From the NCBI GenBank assembly GCA_963675355.2, contig CAXXMZ010000004.1:1077-65076 (forward strand): a DNA stretch of 64,000 nucleotides, read 5' to 3'. Position numbers: made by a program. This DNA comes from Christensenellaceae bacterium (GTDB lineage: Bacteria; Bacillota; Clostridia; Christensenellales; UBA1431). Shown piece by piece: positions 33,001 through 51,000 of the stretch. Positions within the stretch are counted from its first letter, which is position 1. Every line of letters begins with the position of its first letter.

Positions 33001-36000
33001 AGACAATTATTGAGGACGTGGTAAATACTGGGAACCCACGATTTTGTTCAAGTAAATTACATGGGAGTTTTTGGGGTGTAACTACTCGAGACAATTTACG
33101 CCAAAATTTAAGTATAGAAGCTCTTAAGAATTTTGATAATCAAACAACCCATATTTTATTTCAATTTGATGATGTTACTGAGCAAATTGAATTTGAGCAG
33201 ACGTTGAAAACACAAATTGACGAATTAAAAAAAGAGCAAGATAATAATGAAAGAACAAAAAAAGCAGTACTTGAAAAAATTGCATTTCATGATTCTCTGA
33301 CTGGTTTATACAACAGGTATTCTTTGGTAAATAAACTTGAGGAAGAAATTAGCTATTGTCGTAAGTATGCAAAATCATTATCTTTGTTATTTATTGATTT
33401 AGATGGATTTAAGGCAGTTAACGATACTTATGGACATCTTGTCGGCGATGTTCTACTCCAACAGGTAGCTGGTCGTCTAGAAAGCAATACTAGGCATTCC
33501 GAATCACGGGCAAAAGATATCGTGTCGCGTATTGGCGGAGATGAGTTTATTATTGTTCTCAGTGAGGTTTCAGATAGAGAAGACGTCATTATTGTTGCAG
33601 ATAAAGTATTAAATATTATTCGTAAGACTTTTGTTATTTCAAACATAAAAATAAATATTTCTGCAAGCATTGGTATTTCTATATATCCTGACCATGGTAT
33701 TTCTGCTAATGAAATGATTGATAATGCTGATAAAGCCATGTACAAGATAAAACATACCACTAAAAATAATATATTAATTTGTGATTGCCTGACAGTTAAT
33801 TAGCCGTGTACCAGCAGATGGCATTTCAAATAATATTCATACTGATATGAGATTTATTAAGATGGGGGAAGCATGGAAGATGGTAGGAGTTTATTTCCTA
33901 CACTTCTATTTTATCCTTACTTGCGACCTCATTTTCTTTATCATTATTTACACCAAACAAATTTTTTACAATCAAGTATATTATGTCCTATCTTTGATGA
34001 AAATCTAACCCTTTCAGTTTCGAGTGCACGGCGAAAACTACAAGCCGCATTACTAATGGTAGCAAGTCAGTTAGACCTGTTTCCGAATACTTCTGTCCTA
34101 TATAATCGGATAATATAAAAGTCAGGATATAATAATCAGCTATTTGTAAGTTTATTGATTACATCATTATTACCGTCTCAACACATGTTGAGTGCGTGGC
34201 AATGCTGTCGAGAAGGACTAACTGAAAAGCGTTATTATTACAATAATAATAAGCATATTAGGTTTGAAAACAAGTCCAAAGAGACAGTTTCAGGTGTGAG
34301 TGGACGATATCGATGTTAGCACTTGACGTGTGGTTTGAGTCAGGTTTATTTATAAATTGGAGGATCTTATGATTAAATATATTGTAGCATCAAAAAATGA
34401 TATGGAATCACTTATGAAGATCAGGTTAGAAATGCTAAAGGAAGTAAATAACCTGAAAGATGATTATATGTTTAGTGATGAATTGGTTGAACATAGTATA
34501 AGGTATTTTTCGAATTTTAATCAAACTACGATATTAGCAATAGATGAGGAAGTGATTGGTTGCGCTACATTAAGCTACATCGAAATAATGCCAACTTTTT
34601 TGCATCCGACAGGCAAGCGAGCACAATTGATGAATGTATACACAAATTGTCAATATCGTAGACAAGGAATAGCGATTGAAATGATATATATGCTAGTTAA
34701 TGAAGCAAAAAATAGAGGAGTTACAGAGGTAAGCTTAGATGCAACAGAAATGGGGAGAGCGTTATATAAGAAAATTGGCTTTATTGAATCGGGAGAGCAT
34801 ATGATATTGACTATAAAATAGAGTTTTTAAGCATAGAACATGATACTAACGTATAAGGTAACGCAACTAGAGATTGAATGCTAAACATCGAAAAACCGAA
34901 CGTATGGTTTGATGACGGGACGGTTAAAATCCTATAGACCTACTGTATCTAGCATCGAGAAGTAAAGGCAAGAAAGTGTTGGTATAAAGCAAGTTTAGTA
35001 ATTTAGGTTTTAGTCATGCACGTTATAATTGCCTCAAAATCAGAAAGTATTAATATCAAGGAGGTTGAACTATGAATAAAAGGAATATTATATTATCAGT
35101 ACTTGTATTATTGTTATCGTTTGCTTTATGTGCATGCGGCGGAAATGTTAAGAGTGTCAATGGGGTAGATGTAGAATCCCAGATATATACTTCTGATGAT
35201 ATTAATTCAGCTATTGAAACTATAAAAAAAGAGTTCGATAAAAACTGGAAGGGCTGCACATTAAAAGAAATCTATTATGCTGGTGATGATACTTCTCGCG
35301 GTTATCAAGTTTATGCTGATATAAATGATGCAGATGAAGTCATAGTTTTATTGTCTTCTTTTGATGTAGATTCATCAGGGGGCGATGGTTCACTCAATCC
35401 TAACAGCACATATGATGGCTGGAATTGGATTTTAGTACGAAACACAGGCGGTCAATGGAGACATGTTGACCATGGATATTAATCATAGAATATAGTCTCG
35501 CTACCTGCATGAAAAACGAAACAGCCTACTTACATGAGCCACAGATTAGATATCAGGTTTTTAGGCGGTGATTGAAAAAGTCTGTAAAATAAGGTATTTT
35601 CGCTGTTTTTGGACTTGTTCCCCAAATAGCCTAACAATCACATGTCGAGTGCGTGGTAATGCTGTCAAGGGTGAAGGAATAGGAAGTCTGGAAGCATAGC
35701 ATGAAGCTGACAAATTTCAATTTTTCAATGAACGATATGCCACATCAGTGGATTTACCAAATGTTCACATTCGTTATATGCAAAAAGCGCAAGTGCATAT
35801 ATTGATAGGTAACCAACGGACGATTATCGACGTCATATGTATGAGCGGCAACAAATATATTGGAGGGGGACGGAGGTTCCCCAACGGAAACAATCATCGG
35901 TGAATGCTGAAAGGCCTGCCCGTCAAATGAAATTTGAACGATATCTCCCGGTTCCACCTGAGAAATTTCCGCCTCAACAGCGACTGGACCGACACCATGA

Positions 36001-48000: not shown

Positions 48001-51000
48001 GTTGATGTCAAGGGTAGAGAGTAGTAAAAGCTTGAAAACAGTGTATAAGCAAAATTGCTTTGGGAGAAGACCAATATGGAAATACGTGAAATAAGAAAAG
48101 ATGAGCTGATTGCGTTACTCGAGTTATACACTCAACTTCATGATAGACATTATGCCTAAAGTTAATGAAAGACTGTTAGAACTTTGGGATAATATTTTTC
48201 TAGATTGTAATCATCATATAATTGTTGCCATTGAATACGAACGAATTATATCTTCGTGTGTAATAATTATTGTACATAATCTTACGCATAGTCAGCAACC
48301 GTATGCTTTTATTGAAAATGTGATTACAGATGTAGCTTATAGAAATAAAGGTTTTGCTTCGTCATGCATTAATTATGCGAAACAAATCGCTATCGACCAC
48401 GACTGCTATAAAATCATGTTGATGACAGGGAGTAAAAAGGAACAAACCTTAAACTTTTATCGTAAAGTTGGATATAATAACGAAGACAAAACAGCATTTA
48501 TACAGTGGTTATGATTTTTAGAAAAAATCAATTTAATACATAGTTTTCAAAAACAAGTGAAAAGTGCTAGTATCAGGCGCCAGTGTCGATATCGATCTTA
48601 GTTACTCGATGTGTGGCTAGGTTAGATGTCAGGGGTTCACAAGTTAGTAGATTGGGCGTTTTTTCTTTTTCTTGGGGTTGAGTAGAGAAGGTTGGGCTTT
48701 AGGTGCTCGTGATGCGAGGAACAGATTGGATGTTATATTTGGGGAGAGGGTAGGATGGATACCAAACTCTTTTATGTAAGGATTTAAAGGTTTCATAATG
48801 CACTTAAAACATTTCGGACAACTTATATATCACTGTAACTACTTGATAAAATACATGAATAGAAGAGAAATATTGGGTTAAAAAGTATGTGTCCCACAAA
48901 CCATATTGACTTCCCCTCTAGACGGGAAAGGGTATAAGATTGATTCGCACCTCTGCCGCTAGGGTTAGTAATGAAACCATCCCTAGAATTGGTTCACCGA
49001 GTATTGAGATTTTGGTGCATTAATCACCAAATTGCTCCCAATAATAGTTTTTGAGGCATTGTCGAATTCTTATTTGTTTTCATTTCAATGGTCCTATCAG
49101 TGGCCCTGAGCGTAAAAAAATATTTTTGATGGAATACTAAAAATAGTCTTGGATAAAAATAAATGCATAATAATTACTACTCAAGCAGAATTTTCACTGA
49201 TAGCCATATAAGGAGGTATAATATATGAAAAAAGTTCTCAGCTTGATATTAATGGTTTTTCTGACCATGGGTATTTTGCTAACTGGTTGCAAGCAGATAA
49301 ATGAGCCAAGTGATAGACAACTAATAACAGAAGAACCAAGTCCTCGAGAATCAAGCACTCAGGAACCTATTGAACAAAATGCGAAACTTGGTGATTTTTT
49401 TCCTCTCACAATGGGAAGCACATGGGACTACGAAGGTGAAGGTAATGAGTACGCTTCATTCACTAGAAAAGTTCTTTTCGCTAGAGGTGATAGGGCCCAA
49501 ATCATGGAAGATAACGGCGGGACTATCAGTGCATCTGTTTTTGAGACTTCACAGGACTCAGTTACTAGAATATTTTTTAAGGGCGAAGAATATGGTCAAG
49601 AAAATTATATAAACACTGAGCCAGAAGAAAATTTAATAATACTCAAGGCACCACTTGAAGTTGGTACTAAATGGGAGGAGCCAAATGGTATCAGAGAAAT
49701 TGTAGATATAAACGCAACGGTTGATACTCCGGCGGGGAGATACGAAGAATGTATAAAAGTAAAAATCTCGTCAGAGGATTCGACACTATATGAATTCTTC
49801 AAAAAGGATATAGGTATGGTAAAACGGGAATTTATATTTGGGGATAATGTGGTTACGTCCAGTATTAAAGAATACATAATTAAGTAATAATTTTTAAGAA
49901 TAAACAATTTACAAAAGGTCTAGTCTCATGATTTGCAGTAAATCCCGATGATAGTGTAATATTTGCTCATCGGGATTTGCTAATAAATATCTCATTATAG
50001 CGCAAGAGGGTATGGACTAGGCTCTGTATCGTAAGGATTAGCTAAGTAGCTATTCGTTTCGGGACTAATAACTTTGAAACTTGAGACAAAGCAGATTAGA
50101 TAAGGGCAGGTTAGATGTCGGTGCCTGATACATGTTGAGTGCGTGGTAATGCTGTCAAGGGTAAAAGAGTAGGATATCTGCAATGCCCAGTAAACGAGGC
50201 GTTTGTAAAGATGGGGGGAAATATATGAAATGCGCTAATTGTGGTAATCACAATCTCAAAACATTGCATGATGAAGGGGATACGTTTTATTGTTCATTAT
50301 GTTGTCATAGGACACAAACTGCCACGGGACAGGATGACTTGATTACATGTCCCTACTGTGGAAGATTAAGAGATCGAAAAGCTTATCAATGCATGTGGTG
50401 CGGAAATACAATTGGACAAAATATCCAGTCCACGAAAAAAGAATATGCAGAATCGGATAAAAGCCTGACAGAGTTTGAGGAAAATATGGACAATTCAAAT
50501 ATTCGATTCTGGAAGTTGCGAGAAAAAAAGCAATAAGTGGAACCGCTTGTTTACGGGAATAAATTGACTTTTGAAAATATTGATAGCTGAGTTGACAGGA
50601 TTGATTTTAATTAGGTTGTGGAGACAGGGATGGTGAACGAATTGGCTAATCAACATTGCTTAAACCTTTGGTTAATGATGATTAGCCTTGATTTTGGGCT
50701 GCCCTGATAGTAAATTGATATATACAATAAAGGTTTTCTATTGTATATATCAACAAATTTGAATTTGCAGAGGGGAATATATAGTGGAAAAAGCAAGAGA
50801 ATATCTTCGTGAGACTTCAAGACCTTGTGGAGCAGGAAGTTCTGTTTATTATGGTAATCGTACTAGATTTGTTATAGCAGAGGAACAGGCAAAGTTAAAG
50901 GCTATAGAAATTCAAGTGATTATTGATTATACTAATGAGTTTTTAGAATTATTGGAGATGGATTCGGTTATCACCGCGAAGCGAGAATATTTTGGAAATA

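What the first reader, a model, noticed from the sequence alone, without database searches (positions are those of the whole stretch)
34184..50172. Seven co-oriented att-like repeats that look like serial pseudo-3' ends of a TrmA/RumA-type methyltransferase gene
**Layout.** A ~40-nt core, CAYGTTGAG(T/A)(G/C)CG(T)GGTAATGCTGTC.., occurs at 34184, 35641, 42893, 45392, 47030, 47984 and 50131. All copies are on the + strand and all lie in intergenic gaps. They sit 1-7 kb apart and separate small blocks of unrelated cargo genes.

**Three further layers**
1. *Structure.* The core is the right arm of an imperfect palindrome. The palindrome is complete in copy C and partial in copy A.
2. *Coding signature.*
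   - In one frame every copy reads (H/N)VE(C/T)V(V/A)(ML/LM)SR...
   - Differences between copies fall mostly on third codon positions.
   - The Arg is encoded by AGG, CGG, AGA and CGC in different copies, which points to past selection on a coding sequence.
   - The long copies read ..LDLFPK (copy B) and ..SKIKRVSQISGMFPK (copy F) just upstream.
   - From memory, DMFPxTxHxExVxLL is the conserved C-terminus of uracil-5 methyltransferases of the TrmA/RumA (RlmD) family, and rumA-type genes are reported integration sites of streptococcal ICEs.
3. *Neighbours.* Remnants of at least three kinds of large serine recombinase lie beside the copies.

**Reading.** The simplest explanation is repeated site-specific integration into the 3' end of one gene. 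Each event displaces the older elements, which then decay, producing an accretion array. No intact methyltransferase gene is present in the window.

**Alternative.** The copies could be recombination sites of an uncharacterised cassette-type system. A cassette array would be unexpected in this lineage.
Basis: partly seen in the sequence, partly recalled or inferred. Interest (0 to 1): 0.7.

Follow-up and report, generated by a model that had tools for sequence, protein, structure and literature searches.

The report
Stacked mobile-element junctions behind rumA
The seven repeats are copies of the last codons of the rRNA methyltransferase gene rumA, left where serine-recombinase mobile elements inserted one after another at a known hotspot and then decayed, so the main finding is ordinary, though three junctions belong to an apparently undescribed ~2-kb mini-element family.

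Summary
Seven co-oriented copies of a 33-38-nt core lie at exactly the stated coordinates (chance expectation 0.15) and nowhere else in the window. Each reads (H/N)VE(C/T)V(V/A)(ML/LM)SR followed by a stop.

The same 23-nt string ends 78 full-length rumA/rlmD genes in Bacillota genomes and metagenomes. In about 40% of hits it occurs as a displaced short end behind non-rumA "arm" sequences.

The literature already describes the 11th-from-last rumA codon as a cross-genus insertion hotspot for serine-recombinase ICEs, IMEs and transposons. Tandem elements, resupplied 3' ends and recombinase-rumA fusions are all reported there.

The window holds one intact large serine recombinase and four remnants, interleaved with the copies. 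Copy C is a 50-bp imperfect palindrome. rumA itself is not in the window.

New detail: cores B, E and F are preceded by the right end of a widespread ~1.9-kb mini-element encoding a 306-aa serine recombinase without a zinc-ribbon domain. Block D-E is a decayed member. In relatives this unit is 99.4-99.9% identical between unrelated flanks, which makes it cassette-like.

The parts
34184..34225 (+). Copy A: HVECVAMLSRRTN*, pseudo-3' end of rumA
34161..34183 (+). Left arm of copy A (CATTATTACCGTCTCAACA). It is shared with copy C and holds the partial dyad CTCAAC/GTTGAG.
   Evidence: 34161-34192 vs 42870-42901, 90.6%
35641..35682 (+). Copy B: HVECVVMLSRVKE*
35483..35640 (+). Right end 'type II' before copy B: AACAGCCTACTT..AGATTAGATATCAGG..TTGGACTTGTTCCCCAAATAGCCTAACAATCA. 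It matches the right end of the 306-aa-recombinase mini-elements.
42893..42943 (+). Copy C: HVETVVLMSRVKEMSV*. It carries the GAGACGG variant that is also found at the left cores of mini-elements elsewhere.
42869..42918 (+). 50-bp imperfect palindrome centred on ACAC, with attP-like dyad symmetry
45392..45442 (+). Copy D: HVECVVMLSRKCSGEE*, the left end of a decayed mini-element
45257..45391 (+). Two DLFP boxes (IDLFP, MDLFPRT) plus a ~39-nt arm before copy D. The same architecture is seen at displaced ends in many other genomes.
47030..47071 (+). Copy E: HVECVVMLSRVKE*
46920..47029 (+). Partial type II right end before copy E (AAATAGCCTACTTATATG..GTGGACAGCCTAATTATCA)
47984..48025 (+). Copy F: NVECVVLMSRVES.. 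(LM variant)
47820..47983 (+). Type II right end before copy F
50131..50172 (+). Copy G: HVECVVMLSRVKE*
24625..26235 (+). Intact large serine recombinase of 536 aa (Resolvase + Recombinase + Zn_ribbon_recom), inside a phage-like element
38990..39754 (+). Remnant of a large serine recombinase: aa 282-536, 88.6% identical to the intact one, 3.1 kb upstream of copy C
45080..45247 (-). Remnant of a large serine recombinase: last ~55 aa, of the ..EDKFTVEFKSG.TVDV.. type
45543..46252 (+). Pseudogene of the 306-aa serine recombinase family that lacks a zinc ribbon. It covers aa 66-306 at 70-80% identity, has one frameshift and has lost the catalytic N-terminus.
52381..52560 (-). Remnant of a large serine recombinase: last ~58 aa, same type as the remnant at 45080
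47076..47260 (+). Conserved post-core module: hairpin, GGAAACAAGCCC box (an inverted DLFP box), then direct repeats of GGTCAGRTTAGATGTCA
36469..36627 (+). Second module copy, separated from copy B by the amidase gene on the minus strand
51424..51559 (+). Module remnant without its core
48603..48668 (+). Module-repeat remnant
40254..40285 (-). Module-repeat remnant in inverted orientation
35054..35640 (+). Lipoprotein gene plus right end, duplicated at 47389-47975 at ~95% identity within the gene
52724..52903 (+). Fragment ~92% identical to part of the DUF5305 gene at 30764-30946. It is a relic of a further element copy at the right edge of the island.

Best explanation
The region is an accretion array at the known rumA (rlmD) 3'-end integration hotspot.

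**What each repeat is.** Each repeat is a hybrid recombination junction. Its right part, from about CAY-GTT-GAG onward, is a copy of the last ~11 rumA codons. That copy comes either from the original gene end or from the left end of an element. Its left part is the right-end arm of the element on its left.

**How the array builds up.** Serine recombinases exchange strands at a 2-bp crossover in or next to the His-Val-Glu codons. An incoming element brings its own copy of the gene's last codons. Integration therefore regenerates a complete rumA and an attB-like site next to the gene, and pushes earlier elements downstream. The older elements then lose their recombinase genes by deletion.

**What is in this window.** At least three element families are represented:
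- elements with a + strand large serine recombinase a few kb upstream of the core (arms of copies A and C);
- elements with a - strand ..EDKFTVEFKSG.. recombinase and a conserved ~260-nt post-core module;
- ~2-kb mini-elements encoding a 306-aa serine recombinase (arms of copies B, E and F; block D-E).

**Shown here.** The repeats match the rumA 3' end. Recombinase remnants are present. The arm families recur in other genomes. Units bounded by the cores are mobile in relatives.

**Inferred.** The order of events, the activity of the recombinases, and the presence of rumA upstream of the window.
For: **Real, clustered repeats.** Seven real, clustered, co-oriented copies.

**They match the rumA 3' end.**
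- A PDB search hits only uracil-5 methyltransferases, at their C-termini.
- The same 23-mer ends 78 full-length ORFs that finish in the rumA C-terminal motif ..DMFPxTxHVECVVLMSR. Three of them are confirmed as TIGR00479 rumA at 414-570 bits.

**Displaced ends and fusions in other genomes.** About 40% of hits in genomes are short displaced ends behind recurrent non-rumA arms. ORFs of 557-583 aa that end in TVECVVLMSR also occur, and four of them are recombinase homologues.

**Published hotspot.**
- Streptococcal ICEs, and CTn5 in the C. difficile rumA gene (PMC4701971).
- The accretion and CIME model (PMC5704250).
- A nested recombinase island at rumA in Dehalobacter (PMC11578063).

**Recombinases in the window.** One intact and four truncated serine recombinases are interleaved with the cores.

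**Site architecture.**
- Copy C is a 50-bp imperfect palindrome.
- Copies A and C share a 23-nt arm. The intact recombinase lies 8 kb upstream of A. A remnant 88.6% identical to it lies 3.1 kb upstream of C.
- The type II right end before B, E and F aligns with the right ends of mini-elements elsewhere.

**Mobility in relatives.** The 1.96-kb core-to-core unit is 99.4-99.9% identical in six loci whose left flanks are unrelated.

**Other support.**
- GC is 40-44% at 42-46 kb against 31-36% for neighbouring blocks, which fits foreign blocks.
- Decay increases rightward, away from the presumed gene, as accretion predicts.
Against: - No rumA body lies in the window, so linkage of the array to the gene is inferred.
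- No recombinase in the window reads through a core.
- Homology of the intact-recombinase element to its closest relative L239 (92-96% identity) stops about 15-40 nt after the recombinase stop codon.
- A 67%-identical relative in Natronincola has no core within 10 kb.
- Only one of eight loci carrying C-type arms has a recombinase close upstream, and that one is only 37% identical. The pairing of arms A and C with that recombinase is therefore unproven.
- Five of the six inter-core blocks are only 1-2.5 kb. Repeated near-total decay is needed to explain them, unless they were small from the start.
- The last copy, G, is followed by more element debris rather than by chromosomal genes.
Confidence: 0.8

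Rival explanations
1. The array is a cassette platform. The cores are recombination sites that a dedicated small serine recombinase (the 306-aa family) recognises. It excises and re-inserts any block lying between two cores. On this view the array is a dynamic, integron-like gene store rather than a graveyard of large elements.
For: - Core-to-core units of 1.2-2.5 kb, made of a 306-309-aa recombinase plus 0-2 genes, recur in many loci.
- The unit is 99.4-99.9% identical between unrelated flanks.
- The family has at least 1829 clusters at E<=1e-30 and a uniform length.
- Three of the window's cores carry this family's right end.
- Blocks A-B and E-F have both ends but no recombinase, and they share a 95%-identical lipoprotein unit.
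Against: - The window's only member of the family is a pseudogene.
- Other blocks carry remnants of full-length recombinases of different families.
- No fixed platform is present, meaning a recombinase gene beside a primary site and a promoter.
- Cargo genes lie on both strands.
- Deletion derivatives explain the recombinase-less blocks equally well; for example L184 compared with L012.
- No activity data exist for a recombinase without the zinc-ribbon and coiled-coil region.
Confidence: 0.15
2. The array is not attached to rumA in this genome. It travelled as internal baggage of a larger mobile element, or was relocated by rearrangement, so the copies are fossils with no current target gene nearby.
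For: - There is no rumA sequence in 34 kb upstream of copy A.
- The upstream region is itself a mosaic of phage-like and other accessory genes.
Against: - In every locus where the context is visible, arrays begin at an intact rumA or at a recombinase fused to the core.
- Islands of 100-400 kb at rumA are documented, so a distance of more than 34 kb is unremarkable.
- The source contig extends about 14 kb beyond the window (contig length 78,231 nt).
Confidence: 0.04
3. The copies are a generic dispersed repeat of the REP or MITE type, or arose by local tandem duplication of a gene end without site-specific recombination.
For: The repeat is short, partly palindromic and intergenic.
Against: - All seven copies lie within 16 kb, and there are none elsewhere in the 64 kb.
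- The repeat matches a coding 3' end that is conserved across a phylum.
- The flanks are unrelated, apart from arm families that also occur at displaced ends in other genomes.
- Recombinase remnants lie adjacent to the copies.
Confidence: 0.01

Closest known systems
rumA 3'-end insertion hotspot of serine-recombinase elements (vanG elements, ICE-r, ICESp2905/Tn1806-type ICEs, IME_SpnAP200_rumA, CTn5 of C. difficile)
   Same: - The target is the same: the His-Val-Glu region, 11 codons from the end of rumA.
- Elements resupply the last codons.
- Tandem and decayed elements occur.
- Related loci contain serine recombinases fused to the displaced codons.

Sources.
   Different: - This host is a low-GC Clostridia-like organism.
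- The array has seven junctions within 16 kb, and most blocks are only 1-2.5 kb.
- The core DNA variant (..GTGGTAATGCTGTC, coding VVML) gave no exact hit in 185,579 species representatives.
- rumA itself is not seen.
- No recombinase-core fusion is present in the window.
Tandem accretion and CIMEs (cis-mobilizable elements), as described for ICESt1-type elements at the fda 3' end and for IME/ICE tandems
   Same: - Direct repeats of a gene's 3' end separate elements.
- Inner elements have lost their recombination genes but keep both att sites.

Source: PMC5704250.
   Different: Those systems use tyrosine integrases and att sites of a different type. Here the enzymes are serine recombinases, whose attL can resemble attB because the element's P' arm copies the B' arm.
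SCC elements and composite islands at the 3' end of rlmH (orfX) in staphylococci (own knowledge)
   Same: - Large serine recombinases target the 3' end of an rRNA methyltransferase gene.
- Repeated integration-site sequences separate several elements.
- Some of those elements lack recombinase genes.
   Different: - The target gene is different.
- The window's recombinase matches the CcrB, CcrC and CcrA models far below their cut-offs: 167, 138 and 87 bits against 900, 900 and 700.
Integrons
   Same: Short gene blocks are separated by a repeated recombination site and arranged as a co-oriented array of sites.
   Different: - There is no IntI tyrosine recombinase.
- There is no attI and no promoter platform.
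- The repeats are a conserved coding 3' end, not structured attC sites.
- Cargo genes lie on both strands.

Membership tests
rumA 3'-end serine-recombinase integration hotspot | The repeat equals the last ~11 codons of rumA/rlmD | tested here: met
   TIGR00479 scores are 414-570 bits for ORFs that end with the same 23-mer.
rumA 3'-end serine-recombinase integration hotspot | Similarity between copies begins at the His-Val-Glu codons, where the published crossover GA of the GAG codon lies | tested here: inconclusive
   Identity rises from 30% to 82% at CAYGTTGAG. All arms also end in CAY GTY, so the crossover cannot be placed within about 8 nt. The dyad centre of copy C lies in ACAC, 4-6 nt upstream of GA.
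rumA 3'-end serine-recombinase integration hotspot | Serine recombinase genes lie beside the junctions | tested here: met
   One intact recombinase and four remnants.
rumA 3'-end serine-recombinase integration hotspot | The 5' body of rumA lies directly upstream of the first junction | tested here: not met
   tblastn with 78 rumA proteins finds no gene body in the window. Sequence beyond the window could not be retrieved.
rumA 3'-end serine-recombinase integration hotspot | The recombinase ORF lacks its own stop codon and reads into the displaced rumA codons | tested here: not met
   None does so in the window. It is seen in related loci L013, L018, L074, L089, L153, L193 and L213.
rumA 3'-end serine-recombinase integration hotspot | Blocks bounded exactly by the repeats are present or absent as whole units | tested here: met
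   This was tested in relatives only. A 1.96-kb unit is 99.4-99.9% identical while its left flanks are unrelated. No sister strain of the source genome was available.
Accretion array with CIMEs | Inner elements keep both ends but have no functional recombinase | tested here: met
   Blocks A-B and E-F have a core at the left and a type II right end but no recombinase. Blocks C-D and D-E carry truncated recombinase genes.
Integron | An IntI-type tyrosine recombinase with an adjacent attI and promoter | tested here: not met
   The only tyrosine recombinase (16445-17344) lies 17 kb away, inside a phage-like element.
Integron | attC sites: imperfect hairpins with R''/L''-L'/R' boxes at the 3' end of each cassette | tested here: not met
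   Only copy C is a long palindrome. The repeats are a coding sequence. The conserved post-core module has no conserved fold and the window has no Rfam match.
SCC (ccr) elements | CcrA/B/C recombinases and the rlmH target | tested here: not met
   The Ccr models score far below their cut-offs. The target here is rumA, not rlmH.
REP/MITE-like dispersed repeat | Many copies dispersed through the genome, unrelated to any gene end | tested here: not met
   The seven copies lie within 16 kb and there are none elsewhere in the 64 kb. The whole genome could not be tested.

The most novel reading that the evidence does not exclude
The rumA-end cores may form a cassette platform in Bacillota. A very abundant and, to my knowledge, uncharacterised family of 306-aa serine recombinases would service it. 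These proteins have the catalytic and 'Recombinase' domains but no zinc ribbon or coiled coil. Their ~1.2-2.5-kb units, and recombinase-less derivatives such as blocks A-B and E-F, would be excised and re-inserted between any two cores. That would be the functional counterpart of an integron, built on a serine recombinase.
Probability: 0.2. Interest if true: 0.7.

Novelty: new member of a known kind. Interest (0 to 1): 0.38.

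Why it matters
**The repeat array itself.** It is one more example, with an unusually dense series of junctions, of a documented integration hotspot. It adds little beyond showing that the hotspot and its accretion behaviour extend to this low-GC Clostridia lineage. 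It also shows that the same 23-nt gene end recurs across Bacillota: Clostridia, Bacilli, Negativicutes and Acholeplasmataceae.

**What could matter more.** The by-product is a compact, apparently self-contained, site-specific mini-element with a 306-aa serine recombinase. Near-identical copies of it sit in unrelated contexts. Two consequences would follow if it is active:
- It would be a very small site-specific integrase.
- It would test the current model in which the zinc-ribbon and coiled-coil domains are needed for site choice and directionality.

Tried and rejected
**Searches that found nothing.**
- The exact 26-mer of the window's VVML core variant gave 0 hits in viral contigs and in species-representative genomes. 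This variant appears to be lineage-specific. A degenerate 23-mer was needed to find relatives.
- Locating the source genome failed. Five window proteins, and the 100%-identical recombinase P0001, are 'not on record'. The cluster look-up gave no names. No sister-strain comparison and no view of the ~14 kb of contig outside the window were therefore possible.

**Readings of the second repeat (GGTCAGGTTAGATGTCA) and its ~260-nt module.**
- As an RNA: there is no Rfam match, no tRNA or tmRNA and no consensus fold. I rejected this reading.
- As a marker of one adjacent gene: the genes downstream of the module are variable. I rejected this too.

**Pairing the intact recombinase with the arms of copies A and C.** This could not be confirmed.

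**Alternative families considered.** I considered integron, SCC and REP/MITE membership and rejected each on its defining features.

**A paper on small serine recombinases.** The 'small serine recombinases mark defence systems' paper concerns Gin/Hin-size enzymes, not the 306-aa family.

**An ascertainment caveat.** Cross-phylum DNA conservation of the gene end cannot be quantified from my scans, because the loci were selected by that very string.

Full report
**1.

The core CAYGTTGAGWSCG occurs at 34184, 35641, 42893, 45392, 47030, 47984 and 50131, always on the + strand. Chance expectation is 0.15 matches. The longer 23-mer is found five times with up to 3 mismatches, against 0 expected. A profile built from 243 cores finds exactly these seven in the 64-kb window at E<=7e-8; the next best hit has E=1.4.

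Similarity is confined to the core. Mean pairwise identity is 82% over 30 nt, 30% in the 30 nt upstream and 36% in the 30 nt downstream.

Every copy reads (H/N)VE(C/T)V(V/A)(ML/LM)SR and reaches a stop 3 to 28 codons after the Arg. Three copies end SRVKE*.

Arg is encoded by AGA, AGG, CGG and CGC. Variable columns by codon position are 5, 2 and 7. This pattern looks coding-like, but the sample is small.

DLFP or MFP motifs lie upstream of copies A, B, D (twice) and F. Copy C sits in a 50-bp imperfect palindrome with 23-nt arms, 83% complementarity and a 4-nt spacer. Copy A keeps only CTCAAC/GTTGAG.

**2. What the core is**

A peptide spliced from copy D and its upstream DLFPRT motif hits only uracil-5 methyltransferases in the PDB (RumA, RlmCD, RlmC, TrmA). 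Each hit aligns at the extreme C-terminus.

A degenerate 23-mer, GTYGAGTGCGTRGYRWTGMTGTC, gave more than 120 metagenome loci and more than 118 species-representative genome loci.
- In roughly half to 60% of hits the string is the 3' end of a 450-530-aa ORF ending ..(V/A)D(M/L)FPxTxHVECVVLMSR... There are 78 such ORFs.
- Three of them, from Ruminococcus bromii, Lacrimispora amygdalina and Sporolactobacillus laevolacticus, score 414-570 bits on TIGR00479 rumA, against a cut-off of 183.55.
- The remaining hits are short displaced ends. They are preceded by recurrent non-rumA arm families, for example ..DINPSGS-, ..DIKIxLPR-, ..NDIHSxLSS-, ..GIFFxHSR- and ..FDSYxxxSK-.
- A few hits are 557-583-aa ORFs whose last codons are TVECVVLMSR; four of them (L013, L018, L074, L089) are serine-recombinase homologues.

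The hosts span Lachnospiraceae, Ruminococcus, Oscillospiraceae, Bacilli, Selenomonas, Dehalobacter and Acholeplasmataceae.

**3. This is a published hotspot**

- Srinivasan et al. [quoted passage not shown] They saw this in Streptococcus, Enterococcus and Roseburia, often in tandem. Element left ends re-supply RumA-like C-terminal residues, and element-terminal serine recombinase genes are fused to the displaced 11 codons.
- Ambroset et al. (PMC4701971) describe the reciprocal exchange of the 3' ends of rumA and the integrase gene. They also note CTn5 in the rumA gene of C. difficile.
- Guédon et al. (PMC5704250) lay out the model of integration, decay to a CIME, then accretion.
- A Dehalobacter pangenome paper (PMC11578063) reports a 100-400-kb nested recombinase island at the rumA 3' end.

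**4. Anatomy of the window**

tblastn with recombinases from related loci maps five serine recombinase genes or remnants:

| Coordinates | Strand | State |
|---|---|---|
| 24625-26235 | + | intact, 536 aa, Resolvase + Recombinase + Zn ribbon |
| 38990-39754 | + | aa 282-536, 88.6% identical to the intact one |
| 45080-45247 | - | last ~55 aa, ..EDKFTVEFKSG.TVDV.. type |
| 45543-46252 | + | aa 66-306 of a 306-aa family, 70-80% identity, one frameshift, catalytic N-terminus deleted |
| 52381-52560 | - | last ~58 aa, same type as the remnant at 45080 |

Cargo between the cores is accessory:
- two GNAT acetyltransferases
- a lipoprotein gene in two copies (one a pseudogene) and a DUF3108-like lipoprotein
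- an amidase
- a MerR/GyrI-like regulator
- a DUF1801 protein
- an AraC-family regulator
- a glyoxalase
- a YjbR protein
- a DUF4180 protein
- an alpha/beta hydrolase
- an HTH_17 protein
- a nitroreductase

The 42-46-kb blocks have 40-44% GC, against 31-36% for their neighbours.

Copies A and C share a 23-nt arm. The intact recombinase lies 8 kb upstream of A, and a remnant 88.6% identical to it lies 3.1 kb upstream of C.

The only intact recombinase and the largest element lie at the left, and decay increases to the right. Insertion next to the gene predicts this pattern.

The island ends near 53.3 kb, where sugar-metabolism genes begin. The last stretch holds a module remnant, a recombinase remnant and a 92%-identical fragment of the DUF5305 gene from 30.8 kb.

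**5. A mini-element family explains three of the junctions**

Cores B, E and F are preceded by a ~140-nt 'type II' right end: AAATAGCCTACTT .. GAxTAGATRTCA .. TTTGGACxTGTTyC .. AAATAGCCTAAnnnTCAC. It aligns with the right ends of small units in other genomes.

Those units run as follows: core; a ~135-nt leader; a 306-309-aa serine recombinase with Resolvase and Recombinase domains only; zero to two small genes; the right end; then the next core.

The recombinase ends ..KYSSKKK*. In the window's full-length recombinase the same point continues KYSSKYPFSG..C..C, the start of the zinc ribbon.

Core pairs lie 1,915-1,925 bp apart in ten loci, 2,491 bp apart in L251 and 1,216 bp apart in L176.

The family has at least 1,829 clusters at E<=1e-30, and the top 120 are all 306-309 aa long. 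One exact protein, P0132, is indexed in 169 blocks of the collection. The recombinase gene sits directly after an intact rumA in L242 (P0132) and L251 (P0220), and after a 556-aa large serine recombinase in L244 (P0132).

The 1.96-kb unit is 99.4-99.9% identical across six loci whose left flanks share nothing.

In the window:
- Block D-E (1,638 bp) is a decayed member of the family, carrying a nitroreductase gene as cargo.
- Blocks A-B and E-F end with this family's right end but have no recombinase.
- Blocks A-B and E-F also share a 95%-identical lipoprotein unit.

**6. The second repeat**

In about 30 of 120 metagenome loci, a conserved ~260-nt module follows the core directly. It consists of the stop codon, a hairpin, a box TCGCTTCGCGGGAACAAGTCCA, and then four direct repeats of this motif spaced about 30 bp apart. 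The reverse complement of the box reads MDLFPRSD.

The module shows no consensus RNA fold and the window has no Rfam match. The genes after the module vary. In roughly half of the longer loci (L045, L056, L071, L109, L118), a minus-strand ..EDKFTVEFKSG.. recombinase or its remnant lies 0.3-3 kb downstream.

I read the module as the left end of a third element family, with repeated protein-binding sites. That function is inferred.

The DMFP-coding box GAYATGTTYCC also recurs in right-end arms. It lies 17 nt from the His codon in type II arms, against 9 nt in rumA itself, and about 48 nt away in another arm family.

**7. Mechanism, with shown and inferred steps marked**

Shown:
- The repeats are rumA 3' ends.
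- They are flanked by arm types that recur at displaced ends in other genomes.
- Recombinase genes and remnants are interleaved with them.
- Core-bounded units are mobile in relatives.

Inferred:
- Because the element's P' arm copies the gene's B' arm, the attL site produced by integration still resembles attB, and attR resembles attP. New elements can therefore insert again next to rumA. Integrated elements, or groups of them, may also be excisable by the same reaction.
- Deletions then remove recombinase genes and leave CIME-like blocks.
- The exact crossover position is unresolved. The published position is GA; the dyad centre of copy C lies in ACAC.

**8. Limits**

- rumA is absent from the window, and the rest of the 78,231-nt source contig could not be read.
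- The intact recombinase sits in a phage-like element that also carries a tyrosine integrase and genes for terminase, portal, scaffold and capsid. Its closest relative, L239, is 92-96% identical.
- L239 diverges 15-40 nt after the recombinase stop codon.
- A relative in Natronincola has no core within 10 kb. The tie between this recombinase and copy A therefore remains unproven.

**9. Verdict**

The array is a real feature with a sound interpretation, but it is a known kind: an accretion array at the rumA 3' hotspot. The residual interest lies in the 306-aa-recombinase mini-elements and the repeat-bearing end modules, neither of which I found described.

Noticed in passing
window 45392-47030; L242, L244-L253, L176, L074, L012, L063: A family of ~1.2-2.5-kb units lies between two rumA-end cores. 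Each encodes a 306-309-aa serine recombinase with Resolvase and Recombinase domains but no zinc ribbon. The family has at least 1829 clusters. The unit is 99.4-99.9% identical between unrelated flanks. The window's block D-E is a decayed member.
   Followed up: yes
window 47076-47260, 36469-36627, 51424-51559; about 30 of the 120 metagenome loci (L001-L120): A conserved ~260-nt module lies directly after the core. It has a hairpin, an inverted DLFP-coding box, and four direct repeats of GGTCAGGTTAGATGTCA spaced about 30 bp apart. There is no RNA fold and no Rfam match. It may be a set of protein-binding sites at an element's left end.
   Followed up: partly
window 14520-26250; L239, L240: A phage-like block carries genes for a ParB-methylase, a tyrosine integrase, terminase, SPP1-type portal, scaffold, capsid and the intact large serine recombinase. 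It is 92-96% identical to metagenome contig L239, except for a GNAT gene inserted at 22397-23024. Natronincola ferrireducens has the same layout with Kiwa defence genes. No tail genes were seen, so it may be a capsid-encoding satellite.
   Followed up: partly
window 26411-26500; L239 7924-8086: A second, partial copy of the 3' end of the large serine recombinase gene lies 150-350 nt downstream of the intact gene, both in the window and in L239. This may be a pseudo-3' end left by serial integration at that recombinase's own attachment site.
   Followed up: no
window 26656-33803 and 52724-52903: A gene cluster encodes a camelysin-like M73 peptidase, a T2SSE ATPase, an S24/S26 peptidase, a DUF5305 protein, a response regulator, a CheC-like protein and a GGDEF cyclase. 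A 180-nt fragment of the DUF5305 gene is repeated at ~92% identity at the far end of the island.
   Followed up: no
L013, L018, L074, L089, L153, L193, L213: ORFs of 557-583 aa have the rumA core (TVECVVLMSR..) as their last codons. This matches the published recombinase-rumA 3' exchange. L013, L018, L074 and L089 are serine-recombinase homologues; L153, L193 and L213 were not checked.
   Followed up: partly
arms upstream of cores in the window (45257-45391, 35600-35640, 47935-47983) and in many loci: The DNA box GAYATGTTYCC, which codes DMFP in rumA, recurs in element right ends at altered spacing from the core: 17 nt or about 48 nt, against 9 nt in the gene. It also occurs inverted in the post-core module. 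It may be a recombinase-binding motif whose spacing distinguishes attP-like from attB-like sites.
   Followed up: partly
window 42000-46000: GC content is 40-44%, against 31-36% in neighbouring blocks. This fits a separate foreign origin for block C-D.
   Followed up: no
window 1785-3035, 8720-13895: An RHS-repeat protein and two large ORFs (952 and 664 aa) with no Pfam match lie upstream of the phage-like block.
   Followed up: no
L245, L246, L247, L251, L242: The elements that follow the mini-element's second core often carry restriction-modification or helicase-type defence genes. The rumA hotspot may therefore act as a defence island in Clostridia.
   Followed up: no
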